Source: Escherichia phage teqhal. From it: a stretch of 64,000 nt of DNA. The first letter of the stretch is position 1, and the number at the start of each line of letters is the position of its first letter. Where the stretch lies: the sequence record MN895435.1. The stretch is one strand, 5' to 3'. The translations under genes were made by a program, and so were the position numbers. Of this stretch, positions 1,541 through 23,386 are shown piece by piece. The notes beneath the pieces were generated by a model, which was not told the origin of the DNA, did no database searches, and worked only from the letters and a program-made list of their open reading frames with translations.

Positions 1541-1804
1541 ATGATTTTACGATTTAAAGATACTTCTGGTGTCGTTCTTTTTACACTTCCTAATCCAAGC
1601 GAGTTAGAAGTTCCAGGACCAGAACAGCCTATTACCATTTATGGTAAAAAATACTATACTCATAAAATGACTCGTGAGTATTTTGACAATAAAATTTCCA
1701 CAGTTAAAACTTCTTCTGACTGTTACTACGATATTACTGTTTTAACGGAAAAACAATATGAAGAATTATTACCAACCGGGCCGTCTATGCCGGGTAGTGA
1801 ATAA
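1541..1804 (+). CDS. hypothetical protein (87 aa from ATG 1541; track ORF starts at TTG 1529)
   Basis: SD gagagga 1531-1537 then ATG 1541; position matches T4 nrdA.x small ORFs. Confidence 0.55.
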
Positions 1805-2084
1805 ATACAAATCCGACTTTGATGTTAATATTCACCGCGGTACATTTTGGGGAAATTACGTCGGTAAAGATGCTGGCAGCCGGGAGGCTGCCATTGAATT
1901 ATTCAAAAAAGATTTTATACGTCGAATTAAATCCGGAGAAATAACTAAAGCACATTTAGAGCCTTTACGTGGAATGAGGCTAGGATGCACATGTAAACCA
2001 AAGCCGTGTCATGGTGATATAATAGCTCATATAGTTAACCGATTGTTTAAAGACGATTTTCAAGTTGAGGACTTATGCAATTAA
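1758..2084 (+). CDS. hypothetical protein with C-x-C-x-P-x-P-C-H-G-D motif (DUF4326-like, nrdA.1-like)
   Basis: 108-aa ORF; motif [12 protein letters not shown]; stop overlaps nrdA start. Confidence 0.6.
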
Positions 2085-4339
2085 TTAATGTTATCAAAAG
2101 TAGTGGTGTTTCTCAGAGCTTTGACCCACAAAAAATTATTAAAGTTTTATCTTGGGCAGCTGAAGGAACATCGGTAGATCCTTATGAATTATATGAAAAT
2201 ATTAAATCTTATCTCCGTGATGGAATGACAACTGATGATATTCAGACTATTGTCATTAAGGCCGCTGCGAATTCTATTTCGGTTGAAGAGCCTGATTATC
2301 AATATGTAGCTGCACGTTGTCTAATGTTCGCTCTTCGTAAGCATGTTTATGGGCAGTATGAACCACGTTCATTTATTGACCATATTTCTTACTGTGTAAA
2401 TGAAGGTAAATACGACCCTGAATTATTGTCAAAATATTCAGCAGAAGAAATTACATTTTTAGAATCAAAAATTAAGCACGAGCGGGATATGGAATTTACT
2501 TATTCCGGGGCGATGCAATTAAAAGAAAAATATCTAGTTAAAGATAAAACCACTGGTCAAATTTATGAAACTCCACAGTTTGCATTTATGACTATTGGAA
2601 TGGCATTGCATCAAGATGAACCTGTTGATAGATTAAAACACGTTATCCGTTTTTATGAAGCAGTATCTACTCGACAGATTTCATTGCCAACTCCTATTAT
2701 GGCTGGTTGCCGTACTCCGACTCGACAGTTTAGTTCATGTGTTGTTATTGAGGCAGGTGATTCATTAAAGTCTATCAATAAGGCTTCCGCTTCAATTGTT
2801 GAATATATCTCTAAACGCGCTGGAATTGGTATTAACGTTGGTATGATTCGTGCTGAAGGTTCTAAGATTGGCATGGGTGAAGTACGCCATACCGGTGTTA
2901 TTCCTTTTTGGAAACATTTTCAGACTGCTGTTAAATCATGCTCACAGGGTGGAATTCGTGGCGGCGCTGCTACTGCTTATTATCCTATTTGGCATTTGGA
3001 AGTTGAAAATCTTCTCGTTTTGAAAAATAACAAAGGTGTAGAAGAAAACCGCATTCGTCATATGGATTATGGTGTTCAACTGAATGATCTAATGATGGAA
3101 CGTTTTGGAAAGAACGATTACATTACTTTGTTCAGTCCACATGAAATGGGTGGAGAGCTTTATTATTCTTATTTTAAAGACCAAGACCGTTTCCGTGAAT
3201 TATACGAAGCAGCAGAAAAAGACCCTAATATTCGTAAAAAGCGCATTAAAGCCCGTGAACTATTTGAATTGCTCATGACTGAACGCTCAGGAACAGCAAG
3301 GATTTATGTGCAGTTCATTGATAATACGAATAACTATACTCCGTTTATTCGTGAAAAGGCACCTATTCGTCAGAGTAACTTGTGCTGTGAAATTGCTATT
3401 CCAACAAATGATGTGAATAGCCCTGATGCTGAAATTGGATTGTGCACGTTATCTGCATTTGTGTTGGATAACTTCGATTGGCAAGACCAAGATAAAATTA
3501 ATGAATTAGCAGAAGTTCAAGTTCGTGCTCTTGATAATCTTTTGGATTACCAAGGATATCCAGTTCCTGAAGCAGAAAAAGCTAAAAAGCGTCGAAACCT
3601 TGGTGTAGGTGTTACTAACTATGCAGCTTGGCTGGCAAGTAACTTTGCTTCTTATGAAGATGCTAACGATTTAACACATGAACTATTTGAGAGATTACAG
3701 TATGGACTCATTAAAGCATCCATTAAGCTCGCCAAAGAAAAAGGACCTTGTGAATATTATTCAGACACTCGTTGGTCTCGAGGCGAATTACCTATCGACT
3801 GGTACAATAAAAAGATTGACCAAATCGCAGCTCCAAAATACGTTTGTGACTGGTCGTCGCTGCGGGAAGACCTTAAGCTCTTTGGCATCCGTAATAGCAC
3901 ATTATCAGCACTTATGCCATGTGAGTCATCTTCCCAAGTTTCTAACAGTACAAACGGTATCGAGCCTCCACGTGGACCAGTCTCTGTTAAAGAATCAAAA
4001 GAGGGCTCCTTTAATCAAGTCGTGCCCAATATTGAGCATAACATAGACCTCTATGATTATACATGGAAATTAGCTAAGAAAGGTAATAAACCTTATCTTA
4101 CGCAGGTAGCTATTATGCTGAAATGGGTATGTCAATCAGCTTCAGCGAATACATATTATGACCCACAGATTTTTCCAAAAGGAAAGGTTCCAATGTCAAT
4201 AATGATTGATGACCTTTTGTATTTTTGGTATTTTGGCGGAAAAAATTTCTATTATCATAATACCCGTGATGGTTCTGGTACTGATGATTATGAAATAGAA
4301 ACTCCAAAAGCTGAAGATTGTTCATCCTGTAAATTATGA
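2075..4339 (+). CDS. nrdA: aerobic ribonucleoside-diphosphate reductase large subunit
   Basis: 754-aa ORF with ATP-cone N-terminus and class I RNR catalytic core (NLCCEIA..., C-terminal CSSCKL). Confidence 0.95.
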   Translation: MQLINVIKSSGVSQSFDPQKIIKVLSWAAEGTSVDPYELYENIKSYLRDGMTTDDIQTIVIKAAANSISVEEPDYQYVAARCLMFALRKHVYGQYEPRSFIDHISYCVNEGKYDPELLSKYSAEEITFLESKIKHERDMEFTYSGAMQLKEKYLVKDKTTGQIYETPQFAFMTIGMALHQDEPVDRLKHVIRFYEAVSTRQISLPTPIMAGCRTPTRQFSSCVVIEAGDSLKSINKASASIVEYISKRAGIGINVGMIRAEGSKIGMGEVRHTGVIPFWKHFQTAVKSCSQGGIRGGAATAYYPIWHLEVENLLVLKNNKGVEENRIRHMDYGVQLNDLMMERFGKNDYITLFSPHEMGGELYYSYFKDQDRFRELYEAAEKDPNIRKKRIKARELFELLMTERSGTARIYVQFIDNTNNYTPFIREKAPIRQSNLCCEIAIPTNDVNSPDAEIGLCTLSAFVLDNFDWQDQDKINELAEVQVRALDNLLDYQGYPVPEAEKAKKRRNLGVGVTNYAAWLASNFASYEDANDLTHELFERLQYGLIKASIKLAKEKGPCEYYSDTRWSRGELPIDWYNKKIDQIAAPKYVCDWSSLREDLKLFGIRNSTLSALMPCESSSQVSNSTNGIEPPRGPVSVKESKEGSFNQVVPNIEHNIDLYDYTWKLAKKGNKPYLTQVAIMLKWVCQSASANTYYDPQIFPKGKVPMSIMIDDLLYFWYFGGKNFYYHNTRDGSGTDDYEIETPKAEDCSSCKL

Positions 4340-4390
4340 TATAATTTGACTCACGGACGAGTCACCAACTATTAACTAAGCGGAAAATTT

Positions 4391-5569
4391 ATGAGCACAG
4401 TTTTTAATACAAATCCAGTTGATGTTTTAAAAGAACCTATGTTTTTTGGTTCAGGTCTTGGTATTGCGCGTTATGATATTCAACGCCATAAAGTTTTTGA
4501 AGATTTAACCGAAAAGCAATTATCATTTTTCTGGCGTCCTGAAGAAGTAAACTTAATGATGGATGCTGCACAGTTTAATAAGATTCCTCAGTATCAGCAA
4601 AATATTTTTACTAATAATCTGAAGTATCAATCACTTTTGGATAGCATTCAGGGTCGTGCGCCGTCTGCTGTACTTATGTCATTAATTTCAGACCCAAGCC
4701 TTGATACATGGGTTGCTACGTGGACTTTTAGTGAAACTATTCACTCTCGTTCATATACACATATCATGCGAAATCTTTATACTGATCCATCGAAGGTATT
4801 TGATGAGATTGTATTAGATGAAGCTATTATGAAACGTGCTGAATCCATTGGACGTTATTATGATGATGTTCTGACTAAAACTCGTTATTGGGAAAACGCT
4901 AAAGCTGATATCGAATACCAAAAAGAAATTAATGCAGACGAAGATGTTATTGAAGATGCTATTGAGCATGAGACATATTGGAAGCGTGAGCTAATGAAAT
5001 CTCTTTACCTCTGTTTGCATGTAATCAACGCATTGGAAGCTATTCGTTTTTATGTATCTTTCGCATGTACCTTTAACTTCCATAAGAACATGGAAATTAT
5101 GGAAGGCAATGCAAAGATTATGAAGTTCATTGCACGTGATGAGCAGCTTCATCTTAAAGGTACACAATATATTATTCGTCAACTTCAATCTGGTACTGAT
5201 GGCGATGAATGGGTTAAAATTGCTCAAGAGTGTGAACAAGAAGCAGTTGATATTTTCATGGAAGTTAACCGCCAAGAAAAAGATTGGGCAGTTCATTTAT
5301 TTAAAGATGGCGATGTTCCTGGATTAAATACAAATAGCATGTGGAGCTTTATTGATTACTTAACTGTATCTCGTATGAAACAGTGTGGTCTTCCATGCCC
5401 AATTACCGATGCTCCGGTTAAACATCCATATCCTTGGATTCGTGAATATCTTAATTCTGATAATGTTCAATCCGCGCCACAAGAAGTAGAACTGTCATCT
5501 TATCTTGTTGCACAGATTGATAATGATGTTGATGATAAAGTTATGATGAGTTTTAAAAAATACTTTTAA
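4391..5569 (+). CDS. nrdB: ribonucleoside-diphosphate reductase small subunit, uninterrupted (no intron)
   Basis: 392-aa continuous ORF; di-iron R2 fold; only 51 bp after nrdA. Confidence 0.95.
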   Translation: MSTVFNTNPVDVLKEPMFFGSGLGIARYDIQRHKVFEDLTEKQLSFFWRPEEVNLMMDAAQFNKIPQYQQNIFTNNLKYQSLLDSIQGRAPSAVLMSLISDPSLDTWVATWTFSETIHSRSYTHIMRNLYTDPSKVFDEIVLDEAIMKRAESIGRYYDDVLTKTRYWENAKADIEYQKEINADEDVIEDAIEHETYWKRELMKSLYLCLHVINALEAIRFYVSFACTFNFHKNMEIMEGNAKIMKFIARDEQLHLKGTQYIIRQLQSGTDGDEWVKIAQECEQEAVDIFMEVNRQEKDWAVHLFKDGDVPGLNTNSMWSFIDYLTVSRMKQCGLPCPITDAPVKHPYPWIREYLNSDNVQSAPQEVELSSYLVAQIDNDVDDKVMMSFKKYF

Positions 5570-5573
5570 GGAG

Positions 5574-5589
5574 TGGGCCGCAAGGCCCA
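5574..5589 (+). promoter_or_regulatory. hairpin between the Shine-Dalgarno (taaggag 5567-5573) and the denA start codon (split ribosome-binding site)
   Basis: tgggcc-gcaa-ggccca stem-loop followed by ttttatt then ATG 5597. Confidence 0.5.
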
Positions 5590-5596
5590 TTTTATT

Positions 5597-7184
<1,588 letters not shown>

Positions 7185-7187
7185 GCT

Positions 7188-7217
7188 GTTTACAAGTCCC
7201 TCATGTTGTGTTACAGT
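7188..7217 (+). promoter_or_regulatory. early (sigma70-dependent T4-type) promoter, copy A of a duplicated ~60-bp element
   Basis: GTTTAC 7188-7193, spacer, TG-n-TACAGT extended -10; upstream of alc. Confidence 0.6.
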
Positions 7218-7248
7218 AGTCTTACTGACATAACATGAGGACTTTATG

Positions 7249-7752
7249 ATGGATTTACAGCTTATTACTACTGAAATGGTCGTTGAAGCATACGGTGATA
7301 CTACAGATGGGATTTCTGTATTCAAAGGAAATCGTCGAGTTGGATATATCACCGATCTTAAGAAAGATTTAGCTAAGCAAGTCAAGCGGAAAACGACCAT
7401 TAAAGAATATCGAAATCGTCGTCTTGAGCAAGCCCGTGATATGCTTCCTGATGCGGTTGGGGAGATGAAAGTCTTTTTAGAAAATCAACTCGCTAAGTAT
7501 GATTGTGAAGTGTTCATTAATCAGACTCAACCTAATGTTCATATTAACAACTGTAAATGCTATATCATCGTTAATCCTTTGACGGGAAAACATCGTCTTG
7601 GAATTAGTAATCCAAATCGTAGTGCATCGGATATGGCAGAAGATGTTGAGGCATGCTTTAAAATTTCTAAATCTCCAGCTGAACATCATATTTTAATTAA
7701 CGGTCTTTCTCAAGACGATATTATAGAGGTTATTAAAACTTTATGCAATTAA
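7249..7752 (+). CDS. alc: Alc, inhibitor of host transcription on cytosine-containing DNA
   Basis: 167 aa from second ATG (MDLQLITTEM...); position between rnlA and pseT as in T4. Confidence 0.8.
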   Translation: MDLQLITTEMVVEAYGDTTDGISVFKGNRRVGYITDLKKDLAKQVKRKTTIKEYRNRRLEQARDMLPDAVGEMKVFLENQLAKYDCEVFINQTQPNVHINNCKCYIIVNPLTGKHRLGISNPNRSASDMAEDVEACFKISKSPAEHHILINGLSQDDIIEVIKTLCN

Positions 7753-16888: not shown

Positions 16889-17157
16889 TGTTTGTTGTTC
16901 ACACTATTTATGAAAATGAAGGTAATACTACACGTGATTACGGTCACGTAAATCAATTTTTTAGATGCAATCCAGAATTCCGAGCTCAAAAAGACGAACG
17001 AATTTTTAAAAAATGTGTAGAGCAAGGTTTCATTTACGTCAAACACTGGATGCAAGGAAATAAAGTTAGAACCACGTACCACAGGTCTTTGACTGAGCTT
17101 AATGATGAATTGATTTATAATAGAGCTGTAAACCAAACTCTAAAGGATGAACAATGA
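16888..17157 (+). CDS. hypothetical protein (89 aa, T4 30.1 position)
   Basis: ORF. Confidence 0.55.
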   Translation: MFVVHTIYENEGNTTRDYGHVNQFFRCNPEFRAQKDERIFKKCVEQGFIYVKHWMQGNKVRTTYHRSLTELNDELIYNRAVNQTLKDEQ

Positions 17158-18617
17158 TTCTTAAAATTCTGAACGAAATAGCATCTATTGGTTCAACTAA
17201 GCAGAAGCAAGCAATTCTTGAAAAGAATAAAGATAATGAATTGCTTAAACGAGTATATCGTCTGACTTATTCTCGTGGGTTGCAGTATTATATCAAGAAA
17301 TGGCCTAAATCTGGTATTGCTACCCAGAGTTTTGGAATGTTGACTCTTACCGATATGCTTGACTTCATTGAATTCACGTTAGCTACTCGGAAATTGACCG
17401 GAAATGCGGCAATTGAGGAATTAACTGGATATATTGCTGACGGTAAAAAAGATGATGTTGAAGTTTTGCGTCGGGTGATGATGCGAGACCTTGAATGCGG
17501 TGCTTCAGTATCTATTGCAAACAAAGTTTGGCCAGGTTTAATTCCTGAACAACCTCAAATGCTTGCAAGTTCTTATGATGAAAAAGGCATTAATAAGAAT
17601 ATCAAATTTCCAGCTTTTGCCCAGTTAAAAGCTGATGGAGCTCGGTGTTTTGCTGAAGTTAGAGGTGATGAATTAGATGATGTTCGTCTTTTATCACGAG
17701 CTGGTAATGAATATCTAGGATTAGACCTTCTCAAAGAAGAGTTAATCAAAATGACCGCTGAAGCCCGCCAGATTCATCCAGAAGGTGTGTTAATTGATGG
17801 CGAATTGGTATACCATGAGCAAGTTAAAAAGGAGCCAGAAGGCCTAGATTTTCTTTTTGATGCTTATCCTGAAATTAGTAAAGCTAAAGAATTCGCCGAA
17901 GTAGCTGAATCACGTACTGCATCTAATGGCATCGCCAATAAATCTTTAAAGGGAACCATTTCTGAAAAAGAAGCACAATGCATGAAGTTTCAGGTCTGGG
18001 ATTATGTCCCGTTGGTAGAAGTATACGGTCTTCCAGCATTTCGCTTGAAATATGATGTACGTTTTTCTAAATTAGAACAAATGACATCAGGCTATGATAA
18101 AGTAATTTTAATTGAAAACCAGGTAGTAAATAACCTAGATGAAGCTAAGGTAATTTATAAAAAGTATATTGACCAAGGTCTTGAAGGTATTATTCTCAAA
18201 AATATCGATGGATTATGGGAAAATGCTCGTTCGAAAAATCTCTATAAATTTAAAGAAGTAATTGATGTTGATTTAAAAATTGTAGGAATTTATCCTCACC
18301 GTAAAGACCCTACTAAAGCAGGTGGATTTATTCTTGAGTCAGAGTGTGGAAAAATTAAGGTAAATGCTGGTTCAGGCTTAAAAGATAAAGCCGGCGTAAA
18401 ATCACATGAACTTGACCGTACTCGCATTATGGAAAACCAAAATTATTATATTGGAAAAATTCTAGAGTGCGAATGCAACGGTTGGTTAAAATCTGATGGC
18501 CGCACTGATTACGTTAAATTATTTCTTCCAATTGCGATTCGTTTGCGTGAAGATAAAACTAAAGCTAATACATTCGAAGATGTATTTGGTGATTTTCATG
18601 AGGTAACTGGTTTATGA
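17154..18617 (+). CDS. 30: ATP-dependent DNA ligase
   Basis: 487 aa MILKILNEIASIGSTKQKQAIL...; adenylation lysine motif KADGAR; matches recalled T4 DNA ligase. Confidence 0.96.
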   Translation: MILKILNEIASIGSTKQKQAILEKNKDNELLKRVYRLTYSRGLQYYIKKWPKSGIATQSFGMLTLTDMLDFIEFTLATRKLTGNAAIEELTGYIADGKKDDVEVLRRVMMRDLECGASVSIANKVWPGLIPEQPQMLASSYDEKGINKNIKFPAFAQLKADGARCFAEVRGDELDDVRLLSRAGNEYLGLDLLKEELIKMTAEARQIHPEGVLIDGELVYHEQVKKEPEGLDFLFDAYPEISKAKEFAEVAESRTASNGIANKSLKGTISEKEAQCMKFQVWDYVPLVEVYGLPAFRLKYDVRFSKLEQMTSGYDKVILIENQVVNNLDEAKVIYKKYIDQGLEGIILKNIDGLWENARSKNLYKFKEVIDVDLKIVGIYPHRKDPTKAGGFILESECGKIKVNAGSGLKDKAGVKSHELDRTRIMENQNYYIGKILECECNGWLKSDGRTDYVKLFLPIAIRLREDKTKANTFEDVFGDFHEVTGL

Positions 18618-18802
18618 AAGCTTACTTAGAAACAGTTGTCGTAGCTCAAAAAGAAGGTGGAGATGTTTCTACTTCTGTATCACAAGTCGTTCTCGAATTT
18701 GTAGATGCATATGCTTATAATAAATTTACAGAAACATTTGATGCCTATGAAAAAGGTCCAAAGTTTGAAATATACCGTACTCTCTTACCACTAGATTATT
18801 AA
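18614..18802 (+). CDS. hypothetical protein (62 aa)
   Basis: ORF overlapping ligase stop. Confidence 0.5.
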   Translation: MKAYLETVVVAQKEGGDVSTSVSQVVLEFVDAYAYNKFTETFDAYEKGPKFEIYRTLLPLDY

Positions 18803-18824
18803 AGGCCTTCGGGCCTTTAATTTT
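18801..18824 (+). terminator. rho-independent terminator-like hairpin
   Basis: aaaggcc-ttcg-ggccttt followed by aatttta. Confidence 0.65.
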
Positions 18825-18831
18825 ATAAATA
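18824..18831 (+). promoter_or_regulatory. late promoter TATAAATA upstream of alt
   Basis: Exact TATAAATA ~22 bp before the alt start. Confidence 0.7.
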
Positions 18832-18854
18832 GAATAAACACTAGAGAGGATATG

Positions 18855-20948
18855 ATGGAACTCATTACAGAATTATTTGACGAAGATACTACTCTTCCGA
18901 TTACAAACTTAAATCCAAAGAAGAAAATACCACAAATTTTTTCAGTTCACGTTGATGATGCAATTGAACAACCAGGCTTTCGTTTATGTACCTATACATC
19001 TGGAGGTGATACTAATCGCGATTTAAAGATGGGCGATAAAATGATGCATATTGTTCCTTTTACATTAACTGCTAAAGGTTCAATTGCTAAATTGAAAGGT
19101 CTTGGTCCAAGCCCAATTAATTATATCAATTCAGTTTTTACTGTTGCAATGCAAACAATGCGTCAGTATAAAATTGATGCCTGTATGCTCCGTATTCTTA
19201 AGTCTAAAACTGCTGGTCAAGCTCGACAAATTCAAGTTATTGCTGATAGACTTATCCGTAGTCGTTCAGGTGGAAGATACGTCCTTCTTAAGGAACTCTG
19301 GGATTATGATAAAAAGTATGCATATATTCTTATACATCGCAAAAATGTATCACTAGAAGACATTCCAGGAGTTCCGGAAATTAGTACCGAGCTCTTTACT
19401 AAGGTTGAATCGAAGGTCGGTGATGTTTATATCAATAAAGATACTGGAGCTCAAGTAACTAAAAATGAGGCAATTGCAGCATCTATTGCACAAGAAAATG
19501 ATAAACGTTCTGACCAAGCTGTAATCGTTAAAGTTAAAATTTCCCGTAGAGCAATTGCACAAAGTCAGTCATTGGAATCTTCTAGATTTGAAAGTGAATT
19601 ATTCCAGAAGTATGAATCTACCGCAGCTAATTTCAATAAACCTGCTACTGCTCCTTTAATTCCCGAAGCAGAAGAAATGAAGCTTGGAATTAATTCATTA
19701 GCTTCTAAAACTAAGGCAGCAAAAATTATTGCCGAAGGAACTGCGAATGAACTTCACTATGACTATAAATTCTTTTCAAAAAGTGAGGTTAATGAAGTTT
19801 CCGAAAAAATTAAAGATGTAATTCTTAATGCGATCAAAAATGAACCAACTACTTCAATAAAATGTTTAGAGAAATACGCAGCAGCTGTCAATCAATTCTT
19901 TGAAAAATATAAAGATAATTGGCTTGATAAACATAATAAAACTCGTAAAGGGCAGCCAGATGAAGTCTGGGAAGAAATAACTAAAAATTCCTGGAACGCA
20001 GCAAAAACTAAATTCCTCAAACGAATGATTTATAGTTTTTCTGGAATTGGTGCAGGCCCAATGATTGATATTACTATTGCCCGCGATGGTTCTAAATATA
20101 CTCCATCACAAAAGCGTGGCATTAGAGAATATTGCGGTTCAGGATATACTGACATCAATAATCTTCTTTTAGGTCGTTACAATCCAGAACGATATGATGT
20201 AATGAGTGAAAAAGAAATTGAATCTGCTATAAATAATTTAGATTCAGCTTTTGAAAATGGTGACCGTATACCAGAAGGCATTACAGTTTATCGTGCTCAA
20301 AGCATGACTGCTCCTATATACGAAGCACTAGTTAAAAATAAAGTGTTCTATTTCAGAAATTTTGTATCTACTTCTTTAACTCCTATCATTTTTGGACGTT
20401 TTGGAATTACACATGCTGGTATTGGTCTTTTAGAACCAGAAGCTCGTAACGAATTAACGGTTGATAAAAATGAAGAAGGAATAACTATTAATCCAAACGA
20501 AATAAGAGCGTATAAAGAAAATCCTGAATACGTTAAAGTTCAAATAGGATGGGCAATTGATGGAGCTCATAAAGTTAATGTTGTATATCCAGGAAGTCTC
20601 GGAATAGCAACAGAAGCTGAAGTTATTCTACCGCGCGGATTGATGGTTAAAGTTAATAAAATAACTGATGCTTCTAATAATGACGGAACCACGTCTAATA
20701 ATACAAAACTCATTCAAGCTGAAGTTATGACCACAGAAGAACTCACCGAATCGGTAATCTATGACGGAGACCATTTAATGGAAACCGGCGAAGTAGTTGC
20801 AATGACAGGTGATATTGAAATAGAAGACAGAGTTGACTTTGCATCATTTGTTTCATCAAATGTTAAACAGAAAGTAGAATCATCTCTTGGAATTATTGCG
20901 TCTTGCATAGATATTACAAACATGCCTTACAAGTTCGTTCAAGGATAA
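18855..20948 (+). CDS. alt: Alt-family ADP-ribosyltransferase (capsid-packaged), copy 1
   Basis: 697 aa from MELITELFDE...; C-terminal R-S-ExE motifs (YRAQ, VSTSL, EAEVILPRG). Confidence 0.85.
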   Translation: MELITELFDEDTTLPITNLNPKKKIPQIFSVHVDDAIEQPGFRLCTYTSGGDTNRDLKMGDKMMHIVPFTLTAKGSIAKLKGLGPSPINYINSVFTVAMQTMRQYKIDACMLRILKSKTAGQARQIQVIADRLIRSRSGGRYVLLKELWDYDKKYAYILIHRKNVSLEDIPGVPEISTELFTKVESKVGDVYINKDTGAQVTKNEAIAASIAQENDKRSDQAVIVKVKISRRAIAQSQSLESSRFESELFQKYESTAANFNKPATAPLIPEAEEMKLGINSLASKTKAAKIIAEGTANELHYDYKFFSKSEVNEVSEKIKDVILNAIKNEPTTSIKCLEKYAAAVNQFFEKYKDNWLDKHNKTRKGQPDEVWEEITKNSWNAAKTKFLKRMIYSFSGIGAGPMIDITIARDGSKYTPSQKRGIREYCGSGYTDINNLLLGRYNPERYDVMSEKEIESAINNLDSAFENGDRIPEGITVYRAQSMTAPIYEALVKNKVFYFRNFVSTSLTPIIFGRFGITHAGIGLLEPEARNELTVDKNEEGITINPNEIRAYKENPEYVKVQIGWAIDGAHKVNVVYPGSLGIATEAEVILPRGLMVKVNKITDASNNDGTTSNNTKLIQAEVMTTEELTESVIYDGDHLMETGEVVAMTGDIEIEDRVDFASFVSSNVKQKVESSLGIIASCIDITNMPYKFVQG

Positions 20949-20951
20949 ATC

Positions 20952-23009
20952 ATGGAACTTATTACAGAATTATTTGACGGCGCTTCGGCGCCGGTTGTTA
21001 ACTTAAATCCTAAGCATAAAATACCACAAATTTTTGCTATTCAAGCCGGCGAAGAAAGTGTGCTTCCTGGATTTAGATTTTGTACATACACCTCTGGCGG
21101 TGATACAAATAAAAACGTTAAGCCAGGCGATAAAATGATGCATATCGTAATGATAGGCGTCAACGAGAAATTATCGCTGGTTAAGCTTAGAAACTTGGGT
21201 GGAAATCCAATTGGCGTCATTAATGCGGTTTTTGATACTGCTCTTCAAACAATGAAGCAGTATAAAATCGACGCATGCTTATTCCGCGTACTAAAAAGTA
21301 AAACAAATGGCGCAGCTCGTCAAATGCAAGTTATTGCTGACCGTTTAGTACGTACTAAAGGAGCAGGTCGATATGTTCTTTTAAAGGAAATCTGGGATTA
21401 TGATAAAAAGTACGCATATATTATGGTTTACCGTAAAAATGCCAAATTAGAAGACATTCCAGGTGTACCTCCTATTTCAACTGAGTTATTCACAAAAGTT
21501 GAATCAAAGGTTGGTGATGTTTATGTAGACGTTAAAACAGGTAATGCTGTTCCTAAAGCTGTTGCTGTTGCTGCTTCTATTGCTTTAGAAAATGATAAGC
21601 GCACGGATCAAGCTGTTATTCAGAAAACTAAAATTAGTCGTCGATTAGCAGCGCAAGCTCAATATTCTACTGTTGATGCTTCACTTCAGGGTGATAGCTT
21701 CGCTGCTAAGAAATATCAAGAGTTTGAATCTAAAGTTCCGGTATATAAAGCAGAAGGACCAATGAACTCTGGCGTTATTCAGATTGGTTCAAACTTTAGC
21801 AAAGGAGCTATCGGTGGTATGAGAAGTGCTTCTCGTTTTAAATCTAGCGATTATGAACTAGAAAGTTTCCGAAATCATATTGCATTAGCCCATGCACGTT
21901 TACGTGATCCATCTATCAAGTTGCAGAGCGATATAACATATCAAGGTTCTCAAGAATATTTAAAGAATAAAGAATTCTTTGATTATAAAACTGATAAAAT
22001 TTTAAGCGATCTTGCTGATATTAATATTTCTAATAGCTTTGATGTTATTAAGAAAATTATCAATGATTTGGTTAAAGGTTCTAAAGCTACGCCAGATGAA
22101 AAGACAGCTATTATTCAATTTGTCATGAATGGCATTTATAAATTGATTAATGAATCTGCTGCTCAGGCATATGAATACGCAAGCACTGAAGTAACTCCAA
22201 AAGGACTGACTCAGGCTGAGTCTGATGTAATTGAAGATTATTGTGCAGATTCATATGTTGAAATGAACTCGTTCCTTTTGGGTAAACCAGATTCTACCCG
22301 TGAAGAATATATGGAACGAGCTATTAAGCACATTGAGACGTTGGATTCTGCATTCGCTAAAGGTTCAGTTCTTCCTCCAGGAACTACGCTTTATCGTGGA
22401 CAAGAAGTTACCTTTAAAACTTTGCGTCATAACATTGAAAACAAAATGTTCTATTTCAAGAACTTCGTATCGACATCGCTTAAACCAAATATCTTCGGTG
22501 AGCATGGTAAAAACTATATGGCTCTAGATGATTCCGGTGCAGTATTTTCTGGCGAAGGAGAAGGTTCTGTTGATGCAGAAGATTTAATGCATATGGGTAG
22601 TCATTCTGCATATGCTAATGAAGATGCTGAAACTAGCGTAGGTATGGTAATTAAAGGGGCTGAGCGAATCAAAGTTATCGTTCCAGGTCATTTATCAGGA
22701 TTTCCATCAGAAGCTGAAGTTATTCTACCACGTGGAATTTTGTTAAAGATTAATAAAGTAAGCACGTACATGATGAAAGAAACTGCTTATAACAAGTATC
22801 TAATCGAAGGCACAATCGTTCCTCCTTCTGACCAATTAGAAGAATCAGTATATGATGGCGACCATTTAATGGAAACTGGTGAAGTTCGTCCAATGGCTGG
22901 ATTTAATCAATTCCTTGTAGAAGAATCAAAAGAAGAGGAAAACGAAGTTTCTCAAATCTTGGCTTCTTTGGTTAACATCAACGGAATGTCTAAAAAGTTC
23001 AAAATGTAG
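20952..23009 (+). CDS. Alt-family ADP-ribosyltransferase paralogue, copy 2
   Basis: 685 aa, same N-terminus MELITELFD and conserved N-terminal ~230 aa; R-S-ExE motifs (YRGQ, VSTSL, EAEVILPRG); divergent middle region. Confidence 0.85.
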   Translation: MELITELFDGASAPVVNLNPKHKIPQIFAIQAGEESVLPGFRFCTYTSGGDTNKNVKPGDKMMHIVMIGVNEKLSLVKLRNLGGNPIGVINAVFDTALQTMKQYKIDACLFRVLKSKTNGAARQMQVIADRLVRTKGAGRYVLLKEIWDYDKKYAYIMVYRKNAKLEDIPGVPPISTELFTKVESKVGDVYVDVKTGNAVPKAVAVAASIALENDKRTDQAVIQKTKISRRLAAQAQYSTVDASLQGDSFAAKKYQEFESKVPVYKAEGPMNSGVIQIGSNFSKGAIGGMRSASRFKSSDYELESFRNHIALAHARLRDPSIKLQSDITYQGSQEYLKNKEFFDYKTDKILSDLADINISNSFDVIKKIINDLVKGSKATPDEKTAIIQFVMNGIYKLINESAAQAYEYASTEVTPKGLTQAESDVIEDYCADSYVEMNSFLLGKPDSTREEYMERAIKHIETLDSAFAKGSVLPPGTTLYRGQEVTFKTLRHNIENKMFYFKNFVSTSLKPNIFGEHGKNYMALDDSGAVFSGEGEGSVDAEDLMHMGSHSAYANEDAETSVGMVIKGAERIKVIVPGHLSGFPSEAEVILPRGILLKINKVSTYMMKETAYNKYLIEGTIVPPSDQLEESVYDGDHLMETGEVRPMAGFNQFLVEESKEEENEVSQILASLVNINGMSKKFKM

Positions 23010-23038
23010 TTTACAAGTTCCTTATGTTGTGTTATAGT
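23008..23038 (+). promoter_or_regulatory. early promoter, copy B of the duplicated ~60-bp element
   Basis: GTTTAC 23008-23013, spacer, TG-t-TATAGT; near-identical to 7188-7245. Confidence 0.6.
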
Positions 23039-23069: not shown

Positions 23070-23360
23070 ATGAAATCTTCTTTGCGCTTTTTAGGTCAAG
23101 AACTTGTAGTTGAAGGCGTTATTCCTGCTGATAACGCTTTTAATGAAGCAGTTTACGATGAATTTATTAAAATTTTTGGAACAGATAAAAAGTTCGGAAT
23201 TTTTCCTTCTGAAAATTTTTCAAAGTCAGAACAGACTGAAAGTATTTTTCAGGGTGTAGTAACAGGTAAATTTGAGTCAGAAGCTCCGGTAAAAATTGAA
23301 GTTTATATTGAAGACAGTTTAGTTGCTTCAGTTGCTGCTTTCATTTCATTCCGTAAATAA
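23070..23360 (+). CDS. hypothetical protein (96 aa)
   Basis: ORF with SD gagga downstream of the early promoter. Confidence 0.6.
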   Translation: MKSSLRFLGQELVVEGVIPADNAFNEAVYDEFIKIFGTDKKFGIFPSENFSKSEQTESIFQGVVTGKFESEAPVKIEVYIEDSLVASVAAFISFRK

Positions 23361-23364
23361 AAAT

Positions 23365-23386
23365 ATGGGGACCGAAAGGTCCCCAT
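23365..23386. terminator. bidirectional terminator hairpin between convergent genes
   Basis: atggggacc-gaaa-ggtccccat; U-run on the minus-strand side. Confidence 0.65.

What the first reader, a model, noticed from the sequence alone, without database searches (positions are those of the whole stretch)
18852..23009. Two tandem Alt-family ADP-ribosyltransferase genes, both with capsid-targeting N-termini
ORFs 18855-20948 and 20952-23009 both begin MELITELFD (consistent with an N-terminal gp21 protease processing signal), share a conserved ~230-aa N-terminal region, and both keep the R / S-T-S / E-x-E catalytic motifs. Their central regions diverge strongly, so both are probably active ARTs packaged into the head and injected, possibly with different host targets. 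I recall a single alt in T4 and am unsure whether a paralogue sits at this position in T4 itself.
Basis: partly seen in the sequence, partly recalled or inferred. Interest (0 to 1): 0.6.

Follow-up and report, generated by a model that had tools for sequence, protein, structure and literature searches.

The report
Two tandem Alt ADP-ribosyltransferase genes

Summary
ORF1 (18855-20948, 697 aa) and ORF2 (20952-23009, 685 aa) are tandem paralogues, 41% identical overall. Both match Pfam PF03496. Both keep the catalytic Arg, S-T-S and E-x-E, and both keep the two prohead-protease (gp21) sites mapped by mass spectrometry in T4 Alt.

ORF2 is the intact form of what T4 annotates as alt.-1 and alt.-2. 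T4 has a 1-nt frameshift and a ~1.69-kb internal deletion there. The intact gene is in about 400 phage records (T2, T6, RB14, RB32 and others), already annotated "Alt-like RNA polymerase ADP-ribosyltransferase" or "alt.-2". JS98-like phages hold an orthologue, "altb". ORF2 is under strong purifying selection (dN/dS 0.04-0.06).

- **Host-facing part:** the centre, ART domain and C-terminus group by paralogue type across genera, so the duplication is old.
- **Phage-facing part:** the N-terminal 236 aa group by phage lineage.

The best reading is a second packaged, injected, arginine-specific ART with its own target set. Virion presence, activity and targets are inferred, not shown. I found no experimental study of it. 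As a sequence feature it is already known. The useful point is that T4, the model phage, lacks an injected enzyme that most T-even phages carry.

The parts
18803..18823 (+). Hairpin AAAGGCC-TTCG-GGCCTTT followed by a T-run, ending the ligase/alt.1 transcript just upstream of alt.
   Evidence: Read directly from the sequence. The consensus scan did not list it. Nolan 2006 reports a conserved terminator upstream of alt.
18824..18831 (+). T4-type late promoter box TATAAATA, 23 nt before the ORF1 start.
   Evidence: There is no such box directly before ORF2 and no terminator between the two ORFs. Co-transcription of both genes from this promoter is inferred.
18855..20948 (+). alt (ORF1), 697 aa, the T2/T6/RB32-type allele. 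It has an N-propeptide of aa 1-6 (ITE|), a basic N-domain to about aa 236, a helical centre, an ART domain (R480, S505-T-S507, E587-A-E589) and a C-propeptide after LTE-632.
   Evidence: It is 97-99% identical to Alt of RB32, T6, FL33 and RB14, and 70-72% identical to T4 Alt.
20952..23009 (+). alt.-2 (ORF2), 685 aa, the second Alt paralogue. It has an N-propeptide of aa 1-6 (ITE|), an N-domain at aa 7-236, a helical centre at aa ~250-470, an ART core at aa ~480-625 (R482, S507-T-S509, E587-A-E589) and a C-propeptide after LEE-631.
   Evidence: It is 97-99% identical to the genes annotated alt.-2 or 'Alt-like' in RB32, T6, RB14, FL33 and SH7.
20952..21299 (+). The part of ORF2 that T4 still retains, as its alt.-1 and alt.-2 ORFs. 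T4 has a 1-nt deletion in the A-run around 21096-21100.
21300..22989 (+). The ~1.69-kb stretch of ORF2 that is deleted in T4 and in 90 other records with the same junction.
23070..23360 (+). alt.-3 homologue (DUF5498), the downstream neighbour. It has its own sigma-70-like promoter at 23010-23038 and a bidirectional terminator at 23365-23386. It is locus context, not part of the ART pair.

Best explanation
The window comes from a Tequatrovirus (T-even) phage. Between DNA ligase (gene 30)/alt.1 and alt.-3/gene 54 it carries the ancestral two-gene form of the alt locus.

ORF1 is alt, the T2/T6-type allele. ORF2 is the intact alt.-2, a second Alt-family NAD+:arginine ADP-ribosyltransferase.

Both genes are most likely transcribed late from the TATAAATA box at 18824-18831. 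Both proteins are probably built into the prohead core through the shared basic N-terminal domain and short N-propeptide. The prohead protease gp21 would then trim them at ITE-6 and at L-x-E about 55-65 residues from the C-terminus, giving mature proteins of about 70 and 69 kDa. These would be ejected with the DNA. In the host each would use its R / S-T-S / E-x-E site to mono-ADP-ribosylate arginines on host proteins.

The two proteins differ almost completely in the helical centre and in the loop just before E-x-E, the substrate-recognition (ARTT) loop of this enzyme class. So they probably modify different host proteins.

Shown here: gene structure, homology, motif and cleavage-site conservation, purifying selection, distribution, and the nature of the T4 remnant. 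Inferred: transcription, packaging, cleavage, ejection, activity and target difference.
For: - **Family:** both proteins match PF03496, and PHROG 802 'Alt-like RNA polymerase ADP-ribosyltransferase' matches the three ORF2 segments and the ORF1 centre tested. ORF1's R and E-x-E align with the catalytic residues of CDTa. The AF2 model of ORF2 hits Vis, C3bot, CDTa, VIP2 and iota Ia by Foldseek, E = 6e-8 to 1e-4.
- **Catalytic residues:** R, S-T-S and E-x-E are invariant in the 23-sequence alignment. A mutant the authors call T4 Alt E577A is catalytically dead (PMC11404850).
- **Processing:** T4 Alt is cut at ITE-6 and LTE-619 (PMC5694885). Both sites are conserved in ORF1, ORF2 and JS98 AltA/AltB. 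E6 and E631 are invariant. The AF2 model is disordered exactly at aa 1-23 and 629-685. The same arithmetic gives 68.2 kDa for mature T4 Alt, the published value.
- **Selection:** ORF2 against five orthologues gives dN/dS 0.044-0.061 at dS 0.11-0.21, and the ratio is low in all four segments.
- **Distribution:** the ORF2 centre is found in 401 phage records at >90% identity and in 44 JS98-like records at ~45%. JS98 has alta and altb in the same slot.
- **Age of the duplication:** centre, ART and C-terminal trees group ORF2 with AltB, apart from every other Alt.
- **Expression signals:** late promoter box, RBS, a 3-nt gap and no intervening terminator.
- **T4 remnant:**
Against: - No tool result shows that the ORF2 protein is in virions, is cleaved, is ejected or is enzymatically active.
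- I found no proteomic or biochemical paper on it.
- 91 phage records, including T4 and natural isolates, carry the deletion. The gene is therefore dispensable, at least on some hosts.
- There is no late promoter directly in front of ORF2. Its expression level relative to ORF1 is unknown.
- The different-targets idea rests only on sequence divergence of the centre and the ARTT loop.
Confidence: 0.8

Rival explanations
1. ORF2 is a decaying or redundant duplicate with no function of its own, on its way to the state seen in T4.
For: T4 and 90 other records carry the same frameshifted and deleted remnant and are viable. Alt itself is non-essential in T4 (PMC5694885; PMC9026906).
Against: - dN/dS is 0.044-0.061 with 47-82 synonymous against 8-16 non-synonymous differences, and it is low in every segment.
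- The reading frame is intact in about 400 records.
- The paralogue type is conserved in Dhakavirus at 50% identity, with all motifs kept.
Confidence: 0.05
2. ORF2 is packaged as a structural or core internal protein but is catalytically silent or has a changed chemistry, for example a non-protein substrate or RNAylation like ModB.
For: - Its Pfam score is lower than ORF1's (73 against 129 bits).
- It gives no sequence hit to any solved ART at E <= 0.01, whereas ORF1 does.
- Alt is described as a core protein as well as an enzyme (PMC11404850).
- ModB shows that T4 ARTs can use NAD-capped RNA (abstract of 10.1101/2021.06.04.446905).
Against: - R482, S507, S509, E587 and E589 are invariant, and E-x-E is the arginine-specific form of the motif.
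- The ART segment has dN/dS 0.03-0.09.
- The predicted fold matches active R-S-E ARTs.
Confidence: 0.1
3. ORF2 is an active ART made late but not packaged, acting inside the producing cell like ModA and ModB rather than being injected.
For: There is no direct virion evidence. ModA and ModB show that T4 ARTs can act without packaging (PMC5512222).
Against: - ORF2 shares the full Alt architecture, which ModA and ModB lack.
- Its first 9 residues are identical to Alt's.
- Its N-domain is 67% identical to Alt's, and both gp21 sites are conserved.
- The N-domain occurs in only 69 protein clusters out of 1.84 billion, always at the N-terminus. Eight of the ten checked carry PF03496, and one further has a degenerate ART tail.
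Confidence: 0.05

Closest known systems
Bacteriophage T4 Alt (gpAlt, NP_049811), the head-packaged NAD+:arginine ADP-ribosyltransferase
   Same: - Same locus, between gene 30/alt.1 and alt.-3/gene 54.
- Same four-part architecture.
- Same N-terminal MELITELFD and ITE-6 site, and same C-terminal L-x-E site.
- Same R / S-T-S / E-x-E motifs.
- ORF1's N-domain is ~100% identical to T4 Alt's, and ORF2's is 67% identical.
   Different: - ORF1 is only 70-72% identical overall. Its centre (33% identity) and ART domain (65-67%) belong to a different allele, with dS 1.0-1.4 there against 0.09 in the N-domain.
- ORF2 is 41-42% identical overall, with an essentially unalignable centre (11-13%) and a different ARTT loop: SGFPSEAE against LAPSNEME.
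T4 alt.-1 / alt.-2 (NP_049810, NP_049809); RB32 and RB14 'alt.-2'; T2 and T6 second 'Alt-like RNA polymerase ADP-ribosyltransferase'
   Same: ORF2 is this gene. It is 97-99% identical to the RB32, T6, RB14, FL33 and SH7 proteins. It is 95-96% identical to the two T4 fragments over aa 1-56 and 62-116.
   Different: T4 keeps only the first ~348 nt, with a 1-nt frameshift, joined to the last ~20 nt. The T4 annotation reads this as 'a duplication of the first part of gene alt'. The comparison here shows it is a full-length paralogue that suffered an internal deletion. The RB32 note 'apparent insertion in alt.-2' has the direction reversed.
JS98 (Dhakavirus) alta / altb
   Same: A tandem pair in the same slot. 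ORF1 pairs with AltA (48%) and ORF2 with AltB (50%). All motifs and both cleavage sites are kept.
   Different: The N-domains are more alike within each genome (67% and 65%) than between orthologues (45-46%). The N-domain has therefore been homogenised or has co-evolved within each lineage.
C3-like and binary-toxin R-S-E ADP-ribosyltransferases (C3bot, Vis, VIP2, iota Ia, CDTa)
   Same: Same catalytic fold and the same R / S-T-S / E-x-E triad.
   Different: - Delivery is by phage head ejection, not secretion or a pore-forming B component.

Membership tests
Alt/VIP2-clade R-S-E ADP-ribosyltransferases (Pfam PF03496 ADPrib_exo_Tox) | Profile match above the curated threshold | tested here: met
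   ORF1 scores 129.3 bits and ORF2 73.2 bits against a cut-off of 23.4.
Alt/VIP2-clade R-S-E ADP-ribosyltransferases (Pfam PF03496 ADPrib_exo_Tox) | Catalytic Arg, Ser-Thr-Ser and Glu-x-Glu in the right order and register | tested here: met
   ORF1 has R480 / S505-T-S507 / E587-A-E589. ORF2 has R482 / S507-T-S509 / E587-A-E589. They are invariant in alignment A1. ORF1's R and E-x-E align with those of CDTa.
Alt/VIP2-clade R-S-E ADP-ribosyltransferases (Pfam PF03496 ADPrib_exo_Tox) | C3/VIP2-type ART fold | tested here: met
   Tested for ORF2 only. The AF2 model (mean pLDDT 73.6; blocks over the ART region 58-92) hits Vis, Certhrax, C3bot, CDTa, VIP2 and Ia at probability 1.0. ORF1 was not modelled.
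Alt/VIP2-clade R-S-E ADP-ribosyltransferases (Pfam PF03496 ADPrib_exo_Tox) | NAD+-dependent ADP-ribosylation of arginine | not testable with these tools
   This needs an enzyme assay.
T4 Alt-type head-packaged ejected protein | Full-length Alt architecture, including the Alt-specific N-domain | tested here: met
   PHROG 802 matches the three consecutive segments of ORF2 and the centre of ORF1 that were scanned. The N-domain profile finds only 69 clusters, and 8 of the 10 checked carry PF03496. Precomputed Pfam lists PF26846 together with PF03496.
T4 Alt-type head-packaged ejected protein | N-terminal propeptide ending in a gp21 site (ITE-6 in T4) | tested here: met
   MELITE| is identical in ORF1, ORF2 and T4. 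E6 is invariant or nearly so. The T4 site comes from PMC5694885.
T4 Alt-type head-packaged ejected protein | C-terminal propeptide cut at L-x-E (LTE-619 in T4) | tested here: met
   ORF1 has LTE-632 and ORF2 has LEE-631 in the same alignment column. E631 is invariant. The tail at aa 629-685 is disordered in the model.
T4 Alt-type head-packaged ejected protein | Late expression together with head genes | tested here: inconclusive
   TATAAATA lies 23 nt before ORF1. ORF2 has only an RBS and a 3-nt gap, so co-transcription is inferred. A second TATAAATA lies inside ORF1 at 20228. There are no transcript data.
T4 Alt-type head-packaged ejected protein | Physical presence in virions and ejection into the host | not testable with these tools
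   No proteomic report for the second paralogue was found.
T4 alt.-1/alt.-2 locus (orthology) | Same position and near-identity to the T4 fragments | tested here: met
   95-96% amino-acid identity. DNA is collinear up to window 21299 and then resumes at 22990.
GNAT acetyltransferase fold (considered for the N-domain) | Significant fold match plus the acetyl-CoA loop Q/R-x-x-G-x-G/A | tested here: not met
- Only G120 of the candidate loop is conserved.
- The profile finds no PDB sequence at E <= 10, and Pfam shows no acetyltransferase signal in 24 members.

The most novel reading that the evidence does not exclude
Most natural T-even phages may inject two different arginine ADP-ribosyltransferases, not one. 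The second, Alt.-2, would have a private target set chosen by its own helical centre and ARTT loop, possibly including host defence proteins. T4 lost it by deletion, so fifty years of 'alteration' biology would describe only half of the injected ART arsenal.

The basic N-terminal 236 aa would be a lineage-homogenised head-delivery module. It stays matched to the phage's own head core while the host-facing cassette is swapped or diverges.
Probability: 0.5. Interest if true: 0.5.

Novelty: already known. Interest (0 to 1): 0.3.

Why it matters
Alt is the textbook example of an enzyme injected with phage DNA. Nearly everything known about it comes from T4, which turns out to be a deletion variant at this locus. 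About 400 sequenced relatives, including T2 and T6, encode a second, strongly conserved Alt-type enzyme whose targets have not been reported in the literature I could search.

If it is packaged and active, then host takeover, and possibly counter-defence, by wild T-even phages involves an uncharacterised injected effector. Comparing T4 with T2 or T6, or restoring alt.-2 in T4, is a ready-made experiment.

The split between a phage-facing N-domain and a host-facing centre-plus-ART cassette may also help in engineering T4 head-delivery vectors.

As a sequence observation it is ordinary and already annotated.

Tried and rejected
- **N-domain as an active GNAT acetyltransferase.** Rejected as unsupported. 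Only one residue of the would-be CoA loop is conserved, and neither the PDB profile search nor Pfam gives a signal.
- **Recent gene conversion as the cause of N-terminal similarity.** Rejected. Paralogue dS in the N-domain is ~1.5, which is saturated. The lineage-wise grouping therefore reflects older homogenisation or co-evolution.
- **N-domain as a module fused to many other effectors.** Eight of the ten relatives checked for domains carry PF03496. P0183 turned out to be a diverged ART (LYKN, TSCS and NSEIVLPRG motifs). Only P0184 lacks a recognisable ART. The BFVD fold hits to other large phage proteins are weak (TM ~0.5, ~13% identity) and were not followed up.
- **Literature.** Searches for any experimental work on alt.-2, AltB or a second Alt in virions found nothing beyond annotation-level remarks.
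- **Tool limits.** The afdb50 fold library was unavailable.
Full report
**What is there.** The window is a T-even (Tequatrovirus) genome segment. The order on the + strand is:
- DNA ligase gene 30 (17154-18617)
- alt.1 (18614-18802)
- ORF1 (18855-20948)
- ORF2 (20952-23009)
- an alt.-3 homologue (23070-23360)

On the - strand follow baseplate genes 54 and 48.

The 4.8-kb stretch matches 541 phage records. Of these, 353 cover at least 80% of it, and the best places of 459 of the 541 records are 95-99% identical. The best match is T6 at 97.7%.

ORF1 has two in-frame ATGs. The GAGG ends 5 nt before the ATG at 18855, which is also the T4 Alt start, so 18855 is preferred. ORF2 starts 3 nt after the ORF1 stop and has its own AAGGA.

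**The observation.** The two proteins are 41% identical over their full length, E = 4e-159. Both start MELITELFD. Identity by segment is 67% (aa 1-236), 13% (centre), 36% (ART domain) and 44% (C-terminal tail).

Both match PF03496 well above threshold, and PHROG 802 'Alt-like RNA polymerase ADP-ribosyltransferase' matches the three ORF2 segments and the ORF1 centre that were scanned.

The catalytic residues are R480 / S505-T-S507 / E587-A-E589 in ORF1 and R482 / S507-T-S509 / E587-A-E589 in ORF2. They are invariant among 23 family members and nearly invariant among 56. ORF1's Arg and E-x-E align with the catalytic residues of CDTa.

An AF2 model of ORF2 has mean pLDDT 73.6, with its helical centre at 85-93. 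It matches Vis, Certhrax, C3bot, CDTa, VIP2 and iota Ia.

**Relation to T4.** T4 (NC_000866) has alt (682 aa) followed by two small ORFs, alt.-1 (61 aa) and alt.-2 (67 aa). Its annotation calls them an old duplication of the first part of alt. These fragments are 95-96% identical to ORF2 residues 1-56 and 62-116, but only 58-62% identical to ORF1.

At the DNA level T4 follows ORF2 up to window position ~21299, with a 1-nt deletion in an A-run that creates the alt.-1 stop. It then jumps to ~22990. So T4 carries a full-length paralogue that lost ~1.69 kb. It is not a partial duplication.

The same junction occurs in 91 records, including natural isolates. The intact ORF2 centre occurs in 401 records at >90% identity and in 44 JS98-like records at ~45%. 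RefSeq already labels the gene 'Alt-like RNA polymerase ADP-ribosyltransferase'. RB32 and RB14 call it alt.-2, and JS98 calls its pair alta and altb. Nolan et al. 2006 noted alt duplications, including a full-length one in phage 44RR (PMC1524935).

**Is ORF2 a working gene?** Against five Tequatrovirus orthologues, dN/dS is 0.044-0.061 at dS 0.11-0.21. It is low in the N-domain, centre, ART domain and C-tail alike. That excludes a decaying copy.

**Processing signals.** Mass spectrometry showed that gp21 cuts T4 Alt after ITE-6 and after LTE-619, leaving a mature protein of 68.2 kDa (PMC5694885; PMC9026906). ORF1 has ITE-6 and LTE-632. ORF2 has ITE-6 and LEE-631 in the same alignment column. 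JS98 AltA and AltB have LNE plus LQE and LSE. Glu-6 and Glu-631 are invariant.

The ORF2 model is disordered at residues 1-23 and 629-685, which are the two putative propeptides. Applying the same cuts gives 68.2 kDa for T4 Alt (the published value), 70.1 kDa for ORF1 and 69.1 kDa for ORF2. The mature N-domains are basic (pI 9.5-9.7) and the C-propeptides are acidic (pI 4.2-4.6).

**Expression signals.** After a hairpin, a T4 late-promoter box TATAAATA lies 23 nt upstream of ORF1. No terminator lies between the ORFs, and no late box lies directly before ORF2. A second box lies inside ORF1 at 20228. Co-transcription late in infection is an inference.

**Evolution.** The segments give different trees.
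- *Centre, ART domain and C-tail:* ORF2 groups with JS98 AltB. ORF1 groups with T4 Alt, JS98 AltA and the single Alts of a Kanagawavirus and a Klebsiella phage. The duplication therefore predates the Tequatrovirus/Dhakavirus split.
- *N-domain:* the grouping follows phage lineage instead. ORF1 and ORF2 are 67% identical and AltA and AltB 65%, while orthologues are only 45-46% identical.

Paralogue dS in the N-domain is saturated at 1.5, so this is not recent gene conversion. It reflects older homogenisation or co-evolution with lineage-specific head components.

The first gene is itself a mosaic. Against T4 Alt, dS is 0.09 in the N-domain, 1.0-1.4 across the centre and ART domain, and 0.12 in the tail. 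SH7 combines a T4-type alt with an intact alt.-2. The picture is a constant phage-facing module with an exchangeable, fast-diverging host-facing cassette.

**Mechanism proposed.** Both proteins would be made late and incorporated into the prohead core by way of the N-terminal region. Gp21 would trim both ends. They would be ejected with the DNA and ADP-ribosylate host arginines.

The centres are essentially unrelated in sequence. The loop before E-x-E also differs: GIATEAE in ORF1, GFPSEAE in ORF2 and APSNEME in T4. In C3-like ARTs that loop contributes to substrate choice, which is established knowledge of the family rather than something tested here. So different target sets are likely. All steps after gene structure are inferred.

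**Novelty and score.** The feature is real, but it is already annotated in hundreds of genomes and was noted in the literature. I rate it 'already known', interest 0.3. The useful points are these:
- T4 is the exception at this locus.
- The T4 and RB32 annotation notes have the history backwards.
- I found no experimental work on the second injected ART in the searchable library.

Noticed in passing
window 23070-23360 (+), promoter-like site 23010-23038, terminator 23365-23386: This is an alt.-3 homologue (DUF5498/PF17602, 96 aa) with its own sigma-70-like promoter (TTTACA-17-TATAGT with TG). In T4, read-through mutations that extend Alt.-3 let the phage escape the CmdTAC ADP-ribosyltransferase defence (PMC11618068).
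   Followed up: partly
window 18855-20948 compared with L001 (T4) 5455-7503: The first alt gene is a recombination mosaic. Against T4 Alt, dS is 0.09 for aa 1-238, 1.0-1.4 for aa 239-640 and 0.12 for the tail. By tblastn, the ORF1-type centre is in ~319 records, a Bp7-type in 38, and other types including T4's in 431.
   Followed up: partly
window 18855-19562 and 20952-21659; L004 (JS98) 1693-5907: The N-terminal 236-aa domain groups by phage lineage, with the paralogues as sisters. The centre, ART domain and C-tail group by paralogue type. This points to homogenisation or co-evolution of the phage-facing module.
   Followed up: yes
L001 (T4) 5030-5200; window 21300-22989: The T4-type 1.69-kb deletion junction is shared by 91 phage records, including natural isolates (Salmonella phage SG1, Escherichia phages ELT1, PD112 and AV121). 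It is a natural allele, not a laboratory artefact of T4.
   Followed up: yes
window 20952-21671 (N-domain model mcba16ff90c67): Foldseek against viral predicted structures gives weak hits (E 1e-6 to 1e-8, TM ~0.5, ~13% identity) to large uncharacterised proteins of unrelated myoviruses: phiEa2809, Dickeya RC-2014, Vibrio VP-1 and Agrobacterium Atu_ph07. One of these is annotated with a zeta-toxin domain and one with a deaminase domain. This may be a shared head-delivery fold.
   Followed up: no
proteins P0184 (541 aa) and P0183 (485 aa): P0184 has the Alt N-domain (PHROG 802 positions 4-168, E = 6e-29) but no recognisable ART domain. P0183 has a diverged ART tail in which the catalytic Arg is replaced by Lys and the first Glu of E-x-E is lost (NSE).
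   Followed up: partly
window 20228-20235 (+): A second exact TATAAATA late-promoter box lies inside ORF1, 724 nt upstream of ORF2. It could be a chance match or an internal late promoter for ORF2.
   Followed up: no
window 18614-18802 (+): This is an alt.1 homologue (62 aa, PF24647 'Phage_blade', PHROG 1976 of unknown function). Its start overlaps the ligase stop codon (ATGA). One T6 record annotates it, implausibly, as 'siderophore-interacting protein'.
   Followed up: no
T4 Alt numbering: The catalytically dead mutant is published as Alt E577A (PMC11404850). In the RefSeq T4 protein the E-x-E glutamates are E574 and E576, and residue 577 is Val. The published numbering is probably offset.
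   Followed up: partly
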